From NCBI RefSeq assembly GCF_024223415.1, contig NZ_CP100500.1: DNA of 64,000 bases. The stretch is one strand, 5' to 3'. This DNA comes from Escherichia coli. Its GTDB lineage: Bacteria; Pseudomonadota; Gammaproteobacteria; Enterobacterales; Enterobacteriaceae. The position numbers were made by a program, and so were the translations under genes. The notes beneath the pieces were generated by a model. It made no database searches, was not told where the DNA came from, and worked only from the letters and a program-made list of their open reading frames with translations. Below, piece by piece: positions 3 to 39,530 of the stretch (positions are counted from its first letter, which is position 1; each line of letters opens with the position of its first letter).

Positions 3-314
3 TATTATTATTCCGGCATCAGCGACATTTTGACGCTCGACGAAACCATCAAACGTAATCCGCAGGCGCTGGTACAGCTTTGCCTCGGTGCCTTTAAAGC
101 CGGAATGCGTGAATTTACCGCCAATGTCAGCGGTAACGATCTGGTTCGCGTTACCGGTTATATGGTGCGTTTGTCAGATTTAGAAAAATATCGCGCCGAA
201 GGTTCACGCACCAACACCACCTGGCTGGGCGAAGAAGCCGCACGCAACACTCGTATTCTGGAACGCCAGCCGCGCGTGATAAGCCATGAACAGCAGATGC
301 GCTTTAGTCAGTAA
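3..314 (+). CDS. yjjI: YjjI (DUF3029, glycine-radical-enzyme-like), 3' end only; 5' end lies before the window
   Basis: Frame is open from the window edge to the stop at 312-314; sits directly upstream of the yjjW activase as in E. coli. Confidence 0.75.
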
Positions 315-1149
315 GATTATCCCCTTCTCCTGCGTTGACGGGCCAGGCAGTCGTCTGGCTCTGTTTTTGCAGGGCTGCAATCTGCGCTGCAAAAACTGTC
401 ACAATCCGTGGACGATGGGACGTTGCAATGACTGTGGGGAGTGCGTGCCGCAGTGTCCGCATCAGGCGTTGCAGATTGTTGACGGCAAAGTGGTGTGGAA
501 CGCTGTGGTTTGCGAGCAGTGTGATACCTGCCTGAAGATGTGTCCGCAACATGCCACACCAATGGCGCAATCCATGAGCGTGGACGAAGTGCTTAGCCAT
601 GTCCGCAAAGCAGTGCTGTTTATCGAAGGGATAACGGTGAGTGGCGGTGAAGCCACGACCCAGCTGCCGTTTGTGGTGGCGCTGTTTACTGCTATCAAAA
701 ACGATCCGCAACTGTGCCATCTCACCTGCCTCGTGGACAGTAACGGTATGTTGAGCGAAACCGGCTGGGAAAAATTACTCCCGGTGTGCGACGGCGCGAT
801 GCTCGATCTCAAAGCGTGGGGGAGCGAATGTCATCAACAATTAACCGGACGCGATAATCAGCAGATTAAGCGCAGCATCTGTTTGCTGGCAGAGCGCGGT
901 AAGCTGGCGGAACTGCGTTTGCTGGTAATCCCTGGCCAAGTGGATTATTTGCAACACATCGAAGAACTGGCGGCGTTTATCAAGGGAGTCGGCGATGTTC
1001 CGGTACGCCTGAACGCGTTTCATGCCCACGGCGTGTATGGCGAGGCGCAAAGCTGGGCGAGCGCCACGCCGGAAGACGTTGAGCCGTTGGCTGATGCGTT
1101 AAAGGTGCGCGGGGTGAGCCGGTTGATATTTCCGGCGCTCTATTTGTGA
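286..1149 (+). CDS. yjjW: Glycyl-radical enzyme activating protein (radical SAM)
   Basis: 287-aa ORF with radical-SAM CX3CX2C motif (CNLRCKNC) and a second Cys cluster; ATG at 286 overlaps the yjjI 3' end. Confidence 0.9.
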
Positions 1150-1575
1150 CATGCCGGATACGGCCTACGGTTCGGCACAGACTTGTAGGCCTGATAAGAC
1201 GCGTCAAGCGTCGCATCAGGCATTGTGCGCCAACTGCCGGATGCGGCGTGAACGCCTTATCCGGCCTACGGTTCGGCACAAACCTGTAGGCATGATAAGA
1301 CGCGACAAGCGTCGCATCAGGCATTGTGCGCCGACTGCCGGATGCGGCGTGAACGCCTTATCCGGCCTACGGTTCGGCACAGACTTGTAGGCATGATAAG
1401 ACGCGACAAGCGTCGCATCAGGCATTGTGCGCCAACTGCCGGATGCGGCGTGAACGCCTTATCCGGCCTACGGTTCGGCACAAACCTGTAGGCATGATAA
1501 GACGCGTTAAGCGTCGCATCAGGCATTGTGCGCCAACTGCCGGATGCGGCGTGAACGCCTTATCCGGCCTACGGC
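1150..1575. repeat. BIME/REP array, about four tandem copies of a 101-bp unit
   Basis: The motif ccggatgcggcgtgaacgccttatccggcctacgg recurs at 1237, 1338, 1439 and 1540 (period 101 bp); near-identical 69-aa shadow ORFs are offset by 101 bp. Confidence 0.9.
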
Positions 1576-2348
1576 ACGTTAAACAACGTATACGTGTTAT
1601 TAAGCAACGCTTGCGCAATCTCATCCGCCGGTTCCCGGCGCAACTCGCAAAGCACGGCAAACACACGGGCAGCATGCTCCGGGCGGTTAGGCTGCCCCTG
1701 AAAGCCGTTGAGCGGCATATCCGGCGCGTCGGTTTCCAGCAACAACGATGCCAGCGGTAATTTTGCGATGACATCGCGGGTTTTACTGGCGCGTGGATAG
1801 GTGATAGTACCGCCTACGCCGATTTTGTAGCCCAGCTGTACAAACCGTTCAGCCTGTTGCTGGCTGCCAGAAAATCCGTGGACAACACCAGCACGCGGCA
1901 AATCGTGGCGTTTAAGATGCATCGCCAGTTTGTCGTGTGTGCGCCGTGAATGCAGGATCACCGGCAGATCGTAGCGTTTCGCCAGTTTCAGTTGTTCGTC
2001 GAGCAACCACTGCTGCCTCTCAAATTGCGGATCGTCGCCAAAGAGATCCAGACCGATCTCCCCCACCGCCACCACCTTCGCCGGACGCCTTTGCAGCGCC
2101 TGCTGTAGCTGCTCAAGAGACACATCGCTATGTTTTTCCAACATACCAGGATGCAAGCCCAATGCGGCATACAGCGGTTGATAATTTTCCGCTAACGCCT
2201 GCACGCGGGCAAAATTTTCCGCCTCTGTCGCCGGAACAATGATCTTGCCTACGCCCGCTTGTGCCGCGCGTTGCAGGCTGGCCTCTTCATCGCCACTAAA
2301 CGGCGGGAAATCAAAATGGCAGTGGGTGTCGATAAAACGGCAAATCAA
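1569..2348 (-). CDS. yjjV: TatD-family metal-dependent hydrolase
   Basis: 259-aa ORF starting MICRFIDTHCHFDF (TatD-type HxH motif); synteny. Confidence 0.9.
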   Translation of the reverse strand: MICRFIDTHCHFDFPPFSGDEEASLQRAAQAGVGKIIVPATEAENFARVQALAENYQPLYAALGLHPGMLEKHSDVSLEQLQQALQRRPAKVVAVGEIGLDLFGDDPQFERQQWLLDEQLKLAKRYDLPVILHSRRTHDKLAMHLKRHDLPRAGVVHGFSGSQQQAERFVQLGYKIGVGGTITYPRASKTRDVIAKLPLASLLLETDAPDMPLNGFQGQPNRPEHAARVFAVLCELRREPADEIAQALLNNTYTLFNVP

Positions 2349-3454
2349 GCCAGATCCTCATTGTTAAATGTCGGGTCGTTCGCCTGCGGAGCGTCGATCA
2401 CTTCGGCAACCAGTGTATCGTTGGCGACTGGCGCAGGCGGAATGACAATCGATTCCGGCGTCACCACTGGCACCAGATGGCGGGTAAGCGGCGCTTTTTC
2501 AGTTAATAGCTTGCCAACCGTTGCCAGGAAATAACGACCGCATAAACGCCCAAGTTTATAGTCTTCGCGCAGCGCCGGAATCCGACTGCCAAGCGCGATA
2601 CTATGTAATGGCTTCGGCGGATAAATTTCGAATATCCGCAGCTTGCCCGGTGGTTTCTCAATAAATTGCTGAATGTCACGATAGCTGGTTTCATGATGCT
2701 GCACCAGATTGACCAGCGGCTGCAGGCTACTGTCACCCAGCCAGCGTTCCATGCGTTTGAACCACTGCGGCGTGTAGTACATTTGTGACGGCACAGTGCG
2801 GATGACGACCAACGTTTTAGCGCCCTGCCTTGCCGCCTCTTTAACCGGAATCGCATCACTGATCCCGCCATCCAGGTAGTTAATGCCTTCCAGCGACACT
2901 CCGCTACGATAAAAGCCAGGTATCGCACTGGAGGCGCGAATCACATCCAGCCAGTTTTGTTTGGTTGGTAAAAAGTAATTCGGCGCGTAGTCATCCTGAC
3001 GACAGGCGCACATATAAAACGATTTGCCGCTGTCAAACAACCGCGCGGCGGTATCCATTTGCAACGGCATCTGGCTTGCGGTGGCCTCCACCAGCCAGTC
3101 GAGATCGATAAGATTTCCTCCACGGACAAAGCGCAATGGATCGAAAAATTCGCGTTTTGTGGTATAGCGCATGATGACTTTGCGCGCGTAACCGGGCTGA
3201 TTGCAGATAAACGCCGAGAGGTTCTGCGCCCCGGCAGATGTGCCGAGATAAAGATCGAAAGGATTAAACTGCGCGCGCATAAACTCATCCAGCACGCCAG
3301 CCGTGAAAATTCCACGCTGCCCGCCGCCTTCGCACACCAGAGCTATTCGTCCAGGCTGGAACGGCCTTAGCGACAACGGCGCAATATTACCAAGCGTTAC
3401 AGGTATTCGCTGCCCCACTTCTGCCTTCCTGTTTTTGTTGTGAAAGAAAGACAA
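2345..3454 (-). CDS. yjjU: Patatin-like phospholipase
   Basis: ORF with GXSXG lipase motif (GTSAG); its 3' end overlaps the yjjV start; true start may be a few codons downstream. Confidence 0.85.
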   Translation of the reverse strand: MSFFHNKNRKAEVGQRIPVTLGNIAPLSLRPFQPGRIALVCEGGGQRGIFTAGVLDEFMRAQFNPFDLYLGTSAGAQNLSAFICNQPGYARKVIMRYTTKREFFDPLRFVRGGNLIDLDWLVEATASQMPLQMDTAARLFDSGKSFYMCACRQDDYAPNYFLPTKQNWLDVIRASSAIPGFYRSGVSLEGINYLDGGISDAIPVKEAARQGAKTLVVIRTVPSQMYYTPQWFKRMERWLGDSSLQPLVNLVQHHETSYRDIQQFIEKPPGKLRIFEIYPPKPLHSIALGSRIPALREDYKLGRLCGRYFLATVGKLLTEKAPLTRHLVPVVTPESIVIPPAPVANDTLVAEVIDAPQANDPTFNNEDLA

Positions 3455-3539
3455 AGTAACGCAATTTATTATTCGCTAAAACCGCAAAAGCCAGTCCGCT
3501 GGACTGGCTTTGGATAAAATTTTCTTAATGGTCTGAAAT

Positions 3540-3701
3540 CTAGGGTCGTTTTCGGCCCATGAACAAACTCACCAGGAACAGAATAATCCCGACGACAAAG
3601 ACAATTTTAGCTGCGCCTGCAGCGGTACCGGCCAGACCACCAAACCCAAGTGCGGCGGCGATTAACGCGATAACCAGAAATATGATGCCCCAACGAAACA
3701 T
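3540..3701 (-). CDS. ytjA: Small membrane protein YtjA (53 aa)
   Basis: Hydrophobic small [23 protein letters not shown]...; start placed at the internal Met of the 63-aa track ORF. Confidence 0.8.
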
Positions 3702-3827
3702 AAGCGTCTCCTTTACCATAGTTAATGTCACCGCTTGATATGAGCGTGAAAATCACTCAATGCGATATTTTTAGTGTGGTGCACATCGCGCCTCCCGACA
3801 AAGTTCGGGAGGACGAATTACGACGAA

Positions 3828-4433
3828 TTACTTAGTTTTCAGATCATTTTTAACGCTTTTCACACCATCTACCGCTTTGGCGATACTTTCAGCACGGTCA
3901 CTTTGTGCCTGAGAATCTACGGTACCGGAGAGCTGAACCACGCCATCGGTGGTTTCAACTTTCACTTTACGTGAAGGGACGATATCGTCCGCCAGCAGTT
4001 TGGCTTTGATTTCACTGGTGGTGGCGGTGTCACCCGCGTAGCCCTTCACCGAGCCTTCTTTAGCGTCGCGAACGTGCAGTTTGTCGCTGACAGAGGTCAC
4101 GCCTTCAACGCCTTTCGCCACTTTCACTGCCTCTTCGGCCTGGGCCTGACTTTCAACGAAACCGCTCAGGGTCACGACTTTTTGATCGGTTTTGACAGAG
4201 ATATCGGTGCTCTTGATGTTGTCATGATCCACCAGCGCCGCCTTCACTTTCGCGGTGATGGCGCTGTCATCCATGAAATTACCGACTTTATTCATAGAGC
4301 TATCGACTTTTTGCCCTGCGCTTTCATTGGTAGTCTGCGCGTTGTTTTCCGCGTAGGCAGAGCCGGTCGCGACGGCAGAGGTCAACATTACAGCCAGCAG
4401 AGTTTTCGAAATCTTCAGTCTTGTCATAGTCAT
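3828..4433 (-). CDS. osmY: Osmotically inducible periplasmic protein OsmY (BON domains)
   Basis: Signal peptide plus two BON-like repeats; start at internal ATG ([10 protein letters not shown]), 201 aa. Confidence 0.95.
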
Positions 4434-9170: not shown

Positions 9171-9340
<170 letters not shown>

Positions 9341-9460: not shown

Positions 9461-9547
9461 GCGAAGGTGGCGGAATTGGTAGACGCGCTAGCTTCAGGTG
9501 TTAGTGTCCTTACGGACGTGGGGGTTCAAGTCCCCCCCCTCGCACCA
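9461..9547 (+). tRNA. leuQ: tRNA-Leu(CAG), copy 1
   Basis: 87 nt GCGAAGGTGGCGGAATTGGTAGACGCG...; anticodon loop CTTCAGGTG; T-arm GGGGGTTCAAGTCCCCC; encoded CCA. Confidence 0.95.
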
Positions 9548-9575
9548 AAAACCACGTTGATATTGCTCGCACTGG

Positions 9576-9662
9576 GCGAAGGTGGCGGAATTGGTAGACG
9601 CGCTAGCTTCAGGTGTTAGTGTTCTTACGGACGTGGGGGTTCAAGTCCCCCCCCTCGCACCA
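9576..9662 (+). tRNA. leuP: tRNA-Leu(CAG), copy 2
   Basis: Same 87-nt sequence with one substitution (gttcttacgg instead of gtccttacgg in the variable arm). Confidence 0.95.
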
Positions 9663-9696
9663 AACGAGGCGATATCAAAAAAAGTAAGATGACTGT

Positions 9697-9782
9697 GCGA
9701 AGGTGGCGGAATTGGTAGACGCGCTAGCTTCAGGTGTTAGTGTCCTTACGGACGTGGGGGTTCAAGTCCCCCCCTCGCACCA
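9697..9782 (+). tRNA. leuV: tRNA-Leu(CAG), copy 3
   Basis: Same sequence, but the C-run before the 3' acceptor strand has 7 C instead of 8 (86 nt). Confidence 0.9.
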
Positions 9783-9820
9783 ATTATCTTTACTTCCTTT
9801 CTTGTTGCTTCCCTGTTTTA

Positions 9821-37104: not shown

Positions 37105-37183
37105 TAGCGCGGTGCGGATGTGCGCCAACACACCCGCACCGCTCATCACAATCACTATTTTCAAGGAATAGCAGTTATGACTG
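37105..37183 (-). ncRNA. symR: SymR antisense sRNA (approximate coordinates)
   Basis: Placed by analogy with the K-12 symE/SymR type I TA arrangement, where a ~77-nt antisense RNA overlaps the symE RBS and start codon; boundaries not determined from sequence. Confidence 0.35.
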
Positions 37184-39427: not shown

Positions 39428-39530
39428 GCCGGATGCGGCGTGAACGCCTTATCCGGCTTACAAATCGCGCAAATTCAATAGATTGCAGAGGTAATGTAGG
39501 TCTGATAAGCGTAGCACATCAGGCAGCTTT
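39428..39530. repeat. REP pair between yjiR and rpnD
   Basis: gccggatgcggcgtgaacgccttatccggcttac plus an inverted degenerate copy gtaggtctgataagcgtagcacatcaggcagc. Confidence 0.8.

What the first reader, a model, noticed from the sequence alone, without database searches (positions are those of the whole stretch)
1150..1575. Four tandem 101-bp BIME units immediately after yjjW
A highly regular array with period 101 bp made of REP palindromes. It generates a ladder of near-identical shadow ORFs on both strands and is a likely hotspot for copy-number change or DNA gyrase/IHF binding. It is not CRISPR: there are no unique spacers.
Basis: seen in the sequence. Interest (0 to 1): 0.25.

Follow-up and report, generated by a model that had tools for sequence, protein, structure and literature searches.

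The report
Known REP array (BIME-2) between yjjW/yjjV
The repeat is a real but ordinary and already catalogued E. coli element: a tandem array of paired REP hairpins (a BIME-2, named REP352 in K-12) that fills the gap between two convergent genes and changes copy number quickly between strains.

Summary
TRF finds period 101, 4.1 copies and 96% identity at 1161-1574. The array is a 16-nt truncated Y REP followed by four units of [16-nt linker | Z2 REP | 14-nt linker | Y REP]. It fills the whole gap between convergent yjjW and yjjV. This is a textbook BIME-2, and its K-12 counterpart is EcoCyc REP352a-h.

- **Copy number:** the locus is strongly polymorphic. A sample of 59 E. coli genomes has 0-5 units, and one other Escherichia species has 10.9. 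Two genomes with identical 500-nt flanks carry 1 and 5 units.
- **Origin:** the linker junction occurs only at this locus, so the array grew by local amplification.
- **IHF:** rejected. There is no IHF-like site even with 2 mismatches; the IHF site belongs to BIME-1.
- **Gyrase:** a property of the BIME-2 class, not tested at this locus.
- **naRNA4:** all four units match Rfam naRNA4 above its threshold, but a 2026 preprint disputes that RNA's nucleoid role.
- **Most likely function:** a two-way 3'UTR hairpin block that attenuates read-through and stabilises both mRNAs.
- **yjjV stop codon:** in this allele the last Y REP's GTAG supplies it, and the hairpin starts on the next base.

Novelty: already known. 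Interest is low.

The parts
286..1149 (+). yjjW (glycyl-radical enzyme activase), the upstream convergent gene; stop codon TGA at 1147-1149
   Evidence: ORF; annotated as yjjW in matching RefSeq genomes
1153..1572 (.). The whole BIME-2 array: a truncated Y followed by 4 x [linker1 | Z2 | linker2 | Y]. Counterpart of EcoCyc REP352a-h in K-12
   Evidence: named REP352 in bioRxiv 10.1101/2024.07.17.603846
1153..1168 (-). Truncated Y REP, GCCGGATACGGCCTAC: a Y with an 18-nt internal deletion. With linker 1 it forms a weak RNA hairpin at 1152-1177 (-12.4 kcal/mol, z = -2.4) that starts 2 nt after the yjjW stop
   Evidence: The 39-bp allele has a full Y at this position (L005)
1169..1184 (.). Linker 1 (16 nt, GGTTCGGCACAGACTT, variant 'a'), joining the CTAC/GTAG ends of Y and Z2. 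The other copies are at 1270-1285 (variant 'b', AAACCT), 1371-1386 (a) and 1472-1487 (b)
   Evidence: The junction is specific to this locus
1185..1221 (+). Z2 REP of unit 1, reading 5'-GTAG on the + strand. Perfect stem; RNA hairpin -20.4 kcal/mol
1222..1235 (.). Linker 2 (14 nt, ATTGTGCGCCAACT). The other copies are at 1323-1336, 1424-1437 and 1525-1538
1236..1269 (-). Y REP of unit 1, reading 5'-GTAG on the - strand; exact consensus
1286..1322 (+). Z2 REP of unit 2; one mismatch in the outer stem, -13.8 to -14.7 kcal/mol
1337..1370 (-). Y REP of unit 2
1387..1423 (+). Z2 REP of unit 3
1438..1471 (-). Y REP of unit 3
1488..1524 (+). Z2 REP of unit 4
1539..1572 (-). Y REP of unit 4. Its GTAG tetranucleotide (1572-1569 on the - strand) contains the yjjV stop codon TAG (1571-1569). 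The RNA hairpin (-20.9 kcal/mol, z = -4.3) starts at the first base after the stop
1188..1266 (-). Match to Rfam RF02564 naRNA4 (83.1 bits; gathering score 59.5). Equivalent matches lie at 1289-1367 (76.7), 1390-1468 (76.7) and 1491-1569 (75.4), all on the - strand, which is the yjjV sense strand
1569..2348 (-). yjjV (TatD-family metal-dependent hydrolase), the downstream convergent gene; 259 aa, ending ...NVP*

Best explanation
The feature is a BIME-2 (bacterial interspersed mosaic element, type 2) and the counterpart of the K-12 element catalogued as REP352a-h. One inverted doublet of REP palindromes (Y and Z2, with 16- and 14-nt linkers; 101 bp) was amplified in place into four tandem copies. 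The array fills the entire spacer between convergent yjjW and yjjV. Shown here: its anatomy, its class, its amplification at this locus, and its fast gain and loss of whole units between strains. Unit gain and loss is most simply explained by unequal recombination or replication slippage between 101-bp direct repeats, possibly helped by the REP-associated transposase TnpA-REP/RAYT. Inferred from work on the sister array REP325 and on REPs genome-wide: transcripts entering from either gene fold into up to eight stable hairpins. These hairpins block 3'-to-5' exonucleases, which stabilises both mRNAs. They also attenuate read-through, partly through Rho, so the two convergent transcription units do not run into each other. 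There is no intrinsic terminator here to do that job. In this K-12-type allele the last Y hairpin starts on the base after the yjjV stop codon, which itself comes from the REP's GTAG. That places it inside the 15-nt range in which REPs are reported to stall terminating ribosomes and lower translation of the upstream gene. Gyrase cleavage at the Y REPs is plausible as a class property.
For: - Anatomy and significance.
- BIME-2 definition (y + z2, tandem copies, short linkers, copy number variable between strains): PMC3333891.
- Same element named REP352a-h in K-12, noted to overlap yjjV and to lie within the 15-nt limit: bioRxiv 10.1101/2024.07.17.603846.
- Stable hairpins on both strands: RNA, Y -19.5 to -21.3 and Z2 -13.8 to -20.4 kcal/mol, with z-scores of -4.3 to -6.6 for the three REP hairpins that were shuffle-tested. 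Whole array z = -12 and -10.
- No intrinsic terminator or sigma-70 promoter in the spacer.
- Stems are conserved and loops and linkers vary: 4 of 48 stem columns variable against 22 of 54 others, Fisher p = 2e-4, over 26 distinct units.
- Local amplification: the exact Y-linker-Z2 junction occurs 1-4 times per genome (median 2), which equals the number of such units at this locus. Among about 100,000 species representatives it is found only in two Escherichia genomes, both at this locus.
- Copy-number dynamics: 0, 1, 2, 3, 4 and 5 units in 2, 16, 12, 3, 9 and 16 of 59 sampled genomes (my arithmetic). There are 10.9 units in Escherichia sp. MOD1-EC7003. Strains S3 (1 unit) and LR-03 (5 units) have 0 mismatches in 500 flanking nt, and the order of linker variants is mosaic between strains.
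- Function by analogy: REP325 is a partially Rho-dependent terminator and an mRNA stabiliser, and REPs between convergent genes go with higher expression of both genes (bioRxiv 10.64898/2026.03.23.713779).
- Stop-codon geometry. The 15-nt rule of Liang et al. 2015 is taken as cited in PMC12306157.
Against: - No expression, 3'-end or half-life data for this locus were available, so every functional step is by analogy.
- Harris et al. 2026 stress that REP effects vary widely with context, and that terminal REPs do not have longer mRNA half-lives genome-wide.
- REP352 does not appear in the part of their Rho-terminator table that is held, although the neighbouring REP351 does.
- Alleles range from a single Y REP to about 11 units with no known phenotype. 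This fits a mostly neutral element as well as a tuned one.
- No compensatory base changes were seen (0 of 24 pairs). The conserved stems could therefore reflect recent common descent, gene conversion or protein recognition rather than selection on RNA folding.
- REP352 was the only one of eight stress-responsive REP regions that RAREFAN did not predict as a RAYT-associated REPIN, which weakens the RAYT part.
Confidence: 0.85

Rival explanations
1. Essentially neutral selfish DNA: a REP doublet that amplified here and now drifts in copy number. Any effects on the neighbouring genes are incidental.
For: Copy number runs from 0 to 5 in E. coli and reaches about 11 in another Escherichia, with no dominant class. 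Identical flanks carry 1 and 5 units. Alleles with a truncated terminal Y and a different YjjV C-terminus coexist. REP effects are weak and context-dependent genome-wide.
Against: Every allele examined keeps at least one REP-derived element in the spacer. Stems are much more conserved than linkers and loops. Convergent gene pairs with REPs are expressed more highly than pairs without.
Confidence: 0.35
2. A strong, transcription-independent DNA gyrase site that acts as a topological barrier between the two convergent transcription units.
For: Gyrase cleavage sites are over-represented in BIME-2 elements, mainly in y REPs, and increase when transcription is blocked (PMC6379681). This array has four exact-consensus Y REPs between convergent genes, where positive supercoils accumulate.
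Against: Only a subset of BIME-2 elements is cleaved. The loci highlighted in that paper are sucC-sucB and tldD-yhdP, and yjjV/yjjW do not occur in the supplements held. Nothing was tested at this locus.
Confidence: 0.3
3. A source of naRNA4-like nucleoid-associated RNAs that, together with HU, condense the chromosome.
For: All four units exceed the Rfam naRNA4 gathering score on the yjjV sense strand (75-83 bits against 59.5). The orientation relative to the upstream gene is the same as in REP325. Original model: Qian et al. 2015, PMC4550694.
Against: The Rfam model is in effect a Y-linker-Z2 doublet, so any BIME-2 scores; another BIME in the window at 9239-9321 also passes. The scores here are well below those of REP325 (95-111 bits) because the linkers differ. 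Harris et al. 2026 found that deleting or overexpressing REP325 or naRNA4 had no effect on nucleoid volume, and found no stable HU-naRNA4-cruciform DNA complex and no REP-REP contacts in Hi-C.
Confidence: 0.07
4. An IHF-binding element (RIP/RIB, BIME-1).
For: It contains Y REPs, which are also a component of BIME-1.
Against: There is no Z1 REP and no long L linker. There is no match to WATCAANNNNTTR with up to 2 mismatches, G+C is 60%, and the longest A/T run is 4. A true Y-L-Z1 element elsewhere in the window (39428-39520) does carry the expected site at 39473-39485.
Confidence: 0.02
5. An assembly artefact (collapsed or expanded repeat), a CRISPR array, or real small genes.
For: The regular 101-bp period and the ORF ladder give a superficial resemblance to each of these.
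Against: K-12 reference genomes have the identical structure, and one complete genome matches at 100%. Size classes across genomes are discrete steps of 101 bp. The spacers are not unique. The ORFs have no Pfam hit and are unannotated, and 101 is not a multiple of 3.
Confidence: 0.02

Closest known systems
REP352a-h of E. coli K-12 MG1655 (EcoCyc), the yjjV-yjjW intergenic BIME
   Same: It is the same locus with the same 419-nt intergenic length. It has the same eight complete palindromic units (4 Z2 + 4 Y) after a truncated Y, the same a-b-a-b order of linker variants, and the same overlap with the yjjV stop codon.
   Different: There are a few point differences: one in a Y loop and one in linker 2 within the array, and 8 in 500 flanking nt. 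The window is from, or identical to, strain SCU-316 rather than K-12.
REP325 (yjdM-yjdN), the experimentally studied BIME-2 and type locus of Rfam naRNA4
   Same: It is also a tandem array of Y/Z2 doublets with a period of about 100 bp. It starts close to the stop codon of the upstream gene, and its naRNA4-sense strand is the sense strand of that gene.
   Different: It has period 100 and 5.8 copies, against 101 and 4.1 here. Both linkers have unrelated sequences. It lies between tandem genes of one operon rather than between convergent genes. Its naRNA4 scores are 95-111 bits, against 75-83 here.
BIME-1 / RIP / RIB elements
   Same: They also contain a Y REP paired with an inverted second REP at the 3' ends of transcription units.
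   Different: BIME-1 uses Z1, not Z2. It has a long conserved L linker with an IHF site and occurs as a single copy. None of these features holds here.
[quoted passage not shown]
   Same: Each Y-linker-Z2 doublet folds as single-stranded DNA into one long imperfect hairpin. That fold (-25.8 kcal/mol) is more stable than the two separate hairpins together (-11 and -9.5). The units carry the GTAG/CTAC guide tetranucleotide and the stem mismatch that TnpA-REP requires.
   Different: REP352 was not predicted as a RAYT-associated REPIN by RAREFAN, and no circular intermediates were seen. Here the doublet is tandemly amplified rather than dispersed, and its linkers are unique to this locus.
CRISPR arrays
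   Same: Both have regularly spaced short palindromic repeats.
   Different: Here the intervening sequences are themselves repeated at about 96% identity. Two different palindromes alternate in opposite orientation. There is no leader and no cas gene nearby.

Membership tests
REP / palindromic unit (Y and Z2 types) | A 30-40 nt imperfect palindrome able to form a hairpin | tested here: met
   Y is 34 nt and Z2 is 37 nt. Both fold as RNA and as DNA far better than shuffles: DNA z = -3.7 and -4.3, RNA z = -4.3 to -6.6.
REP / palindromic unit (Y and Z2 types) | A conserved GTAG tetranucleotide 5' of the stem foot (PMC3333891) | tested here: met
   All 8 units end in GTAG/CTAC. GTAG is near-invariant across the 34 units from 9 genomes: one unit reads GCAG and one Y tail reads TTAC.
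REP / palindromic unit (Y and Z2 types) | Extragenic location | tested here: inconclusive
   The array is intergenic, except that the last Y overlaps yjjV: its GTAG covers the stop codon TAG (1569-1571) and the last base of the final Pro codon (1572). The same overlap is reported for K-12, stated as 2 nt.
REP / palindromic unit (Y and Z2 types) | High copy number dispersed through the genome | tested here: met
   There are 4 further Y matches elsewhere in the 64-kb window against 0 expected. A query containing the array finds a median of 24 places per E. coli genome, and this is a lower bound.
BIME-2 | Composed of y and z2 REPs in alternating, inverted orientation | tested here: met
BIME-2 | Short linkers and multiple tandem copies | tested here: met
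   The linkers are 16 and 14 nt, and TRF reports 4.1 copies.
BIME-2 | Copy number at a locus varies between strains while units at one locus stay alike | tested here: met
   Units number 0-5 in E. coli and about 11 in Escherichia sp.. Mean column identity is 96% over 34 units.
BIME-2 | Bound and cleaved by DNA gyrase | not testable with these tools
   This is a property of a subset of the class. The locus is not named in the supplements held.
BIME-1 / RIP / RIB (IHF-binding) | A Z1 REP and a long L linker with an IHF consensus site; single copy | tested here: not met
   The second REP is Z2. The linkers are 14 and 16 nt. No IHF-like site is found with up to 2 mismatches. There are four tandem copies.
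Rfam RF02564 naRNA4 | Covariance-model score at or above the gathering threshold (59.5 bits) | tested here: met
   The scores are 83.1, 76.7, 76.7 and 75.4 bits on the - strand.
Rfam RF02564 naRNA4 | Expressed and processed as a roughly 77-nt RNA that binds HU and affects the nucleoid | not testable with these tools
   No expression data are available. The function is itself disputed for the type locus.
RAYT/TnpA-REP substrate (REPIN) | A REP with 5' GTAG and a stem mismatch, paired with an inverted REP; a RAYT gene in the genome | tested here: inconclusive
   The sequence features are present. The RAYT gene lies outside the window and was not searched for. RAREFAN did not call REP352 a RAYT-associated REPIN.
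CRISPR | Identical repeats separated by unique spacers; leader and cas genes | tested here: not met
   All inter-palindrome segments are repeated. The flanking genes are yjjW and yjjV.

The most novel reading that the evidence does not exclude
The array could be a fast-evolving, heritable 'dial'. Gain or loss of a unit (0 to about 11 units, differing even between genomes with identical flanks) and the choice between two junction alleles would set how much YjjV and YjjW are made. One junction puts a REP-derived stop codon directly against a -21 kcal/mol hairpin. The other puts the stop 40 nt from the first full hairpin. The array could also be transcribed on its own from the sigma-54 sites that converge on it (355-371 + and 1738-1754 -), giving naRNA-like RNAs under specific activator control.
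Probability: 0.1. Interest if true: 0.35.

Novelty: already known. Interest (0 to 1): 0.1.

Why it matters
This matters little for discovery. The element class was described in 1991-1997, and this very locus is catalogued as REP352 and discussed in recent papers. It has three practical uses. First, it should be masked in gene finding, because the ORF ladder is spurious, and it is prone to collapse in short-read assemblies since the 425-bp array exceeds read length. Second, its discrete and rapidly changing unit number could serve as a fine-scale strain marker. Third, nature has already supplied an allelic series at one convergent gene pair: 0, 1, 2, 3, 4, 5 and about 11 units, with two stop-codon junction types. 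That series would be a convenient test bed for the current debate over what REP arrays do, whether as terminator and stabiliser, translation brake, gyrase site or nothing.

Tried and rejected
- **IHF site:** an exact search and searches allowing 1 or 2 mismatches found nothing in the array.
- **Terminators and promoters:** none in the spacer.
- **Coding potential of the ORF ladder:** no Pfam hits.
- **Covariation test of the hairpins:** uninformative. Of the 24 pairs, 20 never vary and none shows a compensatory change. Only the contrast between conserved stems and variable linkers could be used. A first version of that count was inflated by one misaligned unit and was redone without it.
- **Whole-array folds:** the minimum-energy folds pair distant Y and Z2 units. 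I treat these as thermodynamic artefacts of folding 461 nt at once, because folding during transcription favours local hairpins.
- **First BLAST with the array inside the query:** it hit the 40-piece limit because REPs are everywhere. I replaced it with a flank-only query.
- **First fuzzy-regex decomposition:** it missed some units, and a later regex had a length error. Both were fixed.
- **Literature not obtainable:** Liang et al. 2015 and Gilson et al. 1991. The 15-nt rule is therefore cited at second hand, and the historical linker motif names (S, s, l, r) are not assigned.
- **Supplements:** those of the gyrase paper, of Ton-Hoang 2012 and of Harris 2026 gave no REP-related entry for this locus; the one hit was yjjW as a gene in an expression table.
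- **RefSeq annotation:** the K-12 record in this collection lists no REP features.
Full report

Yes. Tandem Repeats Finder reports a single array at 1161-1574 with period 101, 4.1 copies, 96% matches, no indels and score 765. The repeat finder independently gives 202-nt copies spaced 101 nt apart at 95-96% identity.

The unit is made of two different palindromes. A 34-nt Y-type REP (GCCGGATGCGGCGTGAACGCCTTATCCGGCCTAC) occurs four times without a mismatch, at 1236, 1337, 1438 and 1539. A 37-nt Z2-type REP occurs four times in the opposite orientation, at 1185, 1286, 1387 and 1488. Shuffled sequence gave 0.00 expected matches for either pattern.

In register, the array is a 16-nt truncated Y (1153-1168) followed by four copies of [16-nt linker | Z2 | 14-nt linker | Y]. 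It begins 3 nt after the yjjW stop codon (1147-1149) and ends inside yjjV. The stop codon of yjjV (1571-1569 on the minus strand) lies within the last Y REP. The array is therefore the entire 419-nt spacer between two convergent genes.

It is an artefact of the repeat. The ORFs have no Pfam match. They are not annotated in any of the four RefSeq genomes inspected. They also disappear or change in alleles with other unit numbers.

**2. What is it?**

By the published definitions it is a BIME-2. That class consists of y and z2 REPs in alternating inverted orientation, with short linkers, in multiple tandem copies whose number differs between strains (Ton-Hoang et al. 2012, PMC3333891).

The window is 100% identical over 1301 nt to E. 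coli SCU-316 and 97.6% identical to K-12, which has the same 419-nt spacer and the same unit order. In K-12 the element is catalogued in EcoCyc as REP352a-h, meaning eight palindromic units. This agrees with my count of 4 Z2 + 4 Y. A 2024 preprint states that it overlaps yjjV and lies within 15 nt of an upstream stop codon (bioRxiv 10.1101/2024.07.17.603846). The element is therefore already known and named.

**3. IHF and gyrase.**

The IHF site of BIMEs belongs to the long L linker of BIME-1, which pairs Y with Z1. The array has no match to WATCAANNNNTTR even with two mismatches allowed. It is 60% G+C and has no A/T run longer than 4. The window offers a built-in positive control. A Y-L-Z1 element at 39428-39520 carries a one-mismatch IHF site in its 34-nt linker, at 39473-39485. 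IHF binding to the array is therefore rejected.

Gyrase cleavage sites are over-represented in a subset of BIME-2 elements. They fall mostly in y REPs and are independent of transcription (Sutormin et al. 2019, PMC6379681). This locus is not mentioned in the supplements held for that paper. Gyrase binding here is thus a reasonable inference from the class, not a result.

**4. Copy-number change.**

A query made only of the two flanks (250 nt of yjjW plus 250 nt of yjjV) matched 5,423 of 5,426 complete E. coli genomes. In 5,389 of them both flanks lie within one place.

The tool lists 60 records taken at even steps down the ranking. In 59 of them both flanks matched, so the spacer length could be read. 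The lengths (span minus 500, my arithmetic) fall into discrete classes:

| Spacer | Units | Genomes |
|---|---|---|
| about 39 bp | 0 | 2 |
| about 122 bp | 1 | 16 |
| about 222 bp | 2 | 12 |
| about 323 bp | 3 | 3 |
| about 425 bp | 4 | 9 |
| about 525 bp | 5 | 16 |
| 150 bp | odd allele | 1 |

The sample is ordered by score and contains several K-12-derived laboratory strains, so these proportions are rough.

Representatives of each class were fetched and dissected. The 39-bp allele is one complete Y REP. The others are a truncated Y followed by n units.

The order of the two variants of linker 1 (a = AGACTT, b = AAACCT) and of the Z2-loop variants differs between strains. It is a-b-a-b here and in K-12, a-b-a-a-b in Eco889, a-a-a-b-b in LR-03, a-b-b in JS316, a-b in O157 and b in S3. 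This is the mosaic pattern expected from unequal exchange between repeats.

Strains S3 (1 unit) and LR-03 (5 units) have no mismatch in the 500 flanking nucleotides. Unit number therefore changes faster than point substitutions accumulate.

Outside E. coli, Escherichia sp. E1V33 has 2 units. Escherichia sp. MOD1-EC7003 has 10.9 units (1123 bp) between the same two genes.

**5. Origin.**

The exact 46-nt junction (Y tail, linker 1 variant b, Z2 head) occurs 1-4 times per E. coli genome, with a median of 2. This equals the number of b-type units at this one locus: O157 has 1 and K-12-derived HB101 has 2. In one genome for each of about 100,000 species, the junction pattern was found only in the two Escherichia genomes above, and only at this locus.

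The sister array REP325 has unrelated linkers. The array therefore arose by amplification of one founder doublet in place, not by repeated insertion. Whether the REP-associated transposase took part cannot be decided here. It cleaves and recombines BIMEs in vitro. However, REP352 was the one stress-responsive REP region that RAREFAN did not class as RAYT-associated, and no circular junction reads were found.

**6. Structure and constraint.**

Each REP folds well on either strand. As RNA, Y gives -19.5 to -21.3 kcal/mol and Z2 gives -13.8 to -20.4 kcal/mol; the hairpins that were shuffle-tested have z-scores of -4.3 to -6.6. As single-stranded DNA the values are -11 and -9.5 kcal/mol.

A Y-linker-Z2 doublet can also fold into one long REPIN-like hairpin. 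Its DNA energy (-25.8 kcal/mol) is better than the two local hairpins combined.

Over 26 distinct units from nine genomes, 4 of 48 stem columns vary against 22 of 54 loop and linker columns (Fisher p = 2e-4). This matches the genome-wide pattern reported by Harris et al. 2026. There is not a single compensatory change. The data therefore show conserved stems but cannot separate selection on folding from recent descent, gene conversion or protein recognition.

**7. The junction with yjjV.**

In this window, in K-12 and in the single-Y allele, the yjjV mRNA ends ...AAC GUG CCG UAG|GCCGGAUAAGG... The stop codon is the UAG of the REP's conserved GUAG. The Y hairpin (-20.9 kcal/mol) begins on the next base.

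A second allele family (Eco889, S3, O157, JS316, LR-03) has a YjjV that is one residue longer, ending ...SVSG* or ...NVRG*. Its stop codon lies 10 nt short of a 16-nt truncated Y that cannot fold. The first full hairpin (Z2) is 40 nt away.

The two natural alleles therefore make opposite predictions for YjjV output.

On the yjjW side, only a weak non-canonical hairpin lies within 15 nt of the stop codon. It is formed by the truncated Y plus linker 1 (-12.4 kcal/mol, z = -2.4). The first canonical REP starts 36 nt after the stop.

**8. The naRNA4 match.**

All four units exceed the gathering score of Rfam RF02564 on the minus strand (75-83 bits against 59.5). The minus strand is the yjjV sense strand. 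The type locus REP325 has the same orientation with respect to its upstream gene yjdM and scores 95-111 bits.

Formally the units are family members. In practice the model describes a Y-linker-Z2 doublet, and another BIME in the window (9239-9321) also passes.

The proposed function was HU-dependent nucleoid condensation (Qian et al. 2015, PMC4550694). A 2026 preprint whose authors include the senior author of the 2015 study contradicts it. It finds that REP325 has no effect on nucleoid volume or Hi-C contacts. [quoted passage not shown]

**9. Most likely mechanism.**

The spacer has no intrinsic terminator, and the genes converge. The best-supported reading is therefore a two-way 3'UTR element. 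Its hairpins would stop 3' exonucleases and attenuate read-through from both sides. The yjjV-proximal hairpin may add a translation brake in this allele. This is inference by analogy. No expression data for the locus were available, and REP352 does not appear in the part of the Harris et al. Rho-terminator table that is held, although the neighbouring REP351 does.

The main rival is that the array is largely neutral. That variation is now shown, but phenotype remains untested.

**10. Verdict.**

The element is a textbook BIME-2, already catalogued as REP352. Novelty is 'already known' and interest is low.

The modest additions from this work are:
- the full allelic series at the locus;
- the evidence for amplification specific to this locus;
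- the REP-derived stop codon, with two junction alleles;
- the two sigma-54 sites that converge on the array.

Noticed in passing
window 355-371 (+) and 1738-1754 (-): These are sigma-54 binding motifs reported by ChIP in K-12 (sites IS57 in yjjW and IS56 in yjjV; PMC4591121). They are present here as CTGGCTCTGTTTTTGCA (exact) and CTGGCATCGTTGTTGCT (1 mismatch). Both are sense-oriented, so they converge on the BIME array. The yjjV site lies about 167 nt upstream of the yjjV stop codon and, if ever activated, would transcribe the array in the naRNA4-sense direction.
   Followed up: partly
window 9180-9324: A second BIME (Y - Z2 - Y, period about 111 bp, with linkers unrelated to those of the main array) lies upstream of the leu tRNA genes. 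It matches Rfam naRNA4 at 9239-9321 (-) with 65.3 bits. It probably corresponds to K-12 REP351 (rsmC-leuQ), which a supplement of Harris et al. 2026 lists as overlapping a NusG-dependent Rho termination region.
   Followed up: partly
window 39428-39520: A BIME-1-like element: Y REP, then a 34-nt linker, then an inverted Z1-like REP. The linker contains an IHF-like site, ATTCAATAGATTG (39473-39485, 1 mismatch).
   Followed up: partly
window 63384-63429: A single exact-consensus Y REP (63396-63429) is immediately preceded by an exact IHF consensus, AATCAAATTTTTG (63384-63396). The window has only 2 exact IHF matches against 3.35 expected, so the adjacency may be chance.
   Followed up: no
window 46122-48491 (+): A 789-aa ORF contains all three other notable tandem repeats of the window in frame: 6 bp x 8.3 (KD repeats, 46481-46530), 18 bp x 9.6 (THKIPG-like, 47642-47813) and 24 bp x 10.9 (STEKQAND-like, 48125-48385). 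Pfam finds Pentapeptide repeats (PF00805, E = 2e-35). This looks like a strain-variable repeat protein in the region beyond hsd/symE.
   Followed up: partly
window 37106-37182 (-): SymR antitoxin sRNA (Rfam RF01809, 91.7 bits).
   Followed up: no
window 9461-9783 (+): Three tandem tRNA genes at a spacing of about 115 bp (TRF period 115; Rfam tRNA hits at 9461, 9576 and 9697). By position these are presumably the leuQPV cluster.
   Followed up: no
L006 (E. coli BS-01, NZ_CP172816.1) positions 551-700: An odd allele of the same spacer (150 bp). It has one Z2 unit followed by about 60 nt of unrelated sequence flanked by two copies of TGCCGGATGCTGC, and a third YjjV C-terminus (...SVGN*). The origin of the insert was not determined.
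   Followed up: no
L014 (Escherichia sp. MOD1-EC7003, NZ_PTRE01000059.1) positions 3230-4352: This is the largest allele seen: 10.9 units (1123 bp) between yjjW and yjjV, with a secondary 201-bp periodicity and 11 naRNA4-model hits. The right-hand junction is K-12-like (YjjV ends ...NVS*), so the REP-derived stop codon is not confined to E. coli proper.
   Followed up: partly
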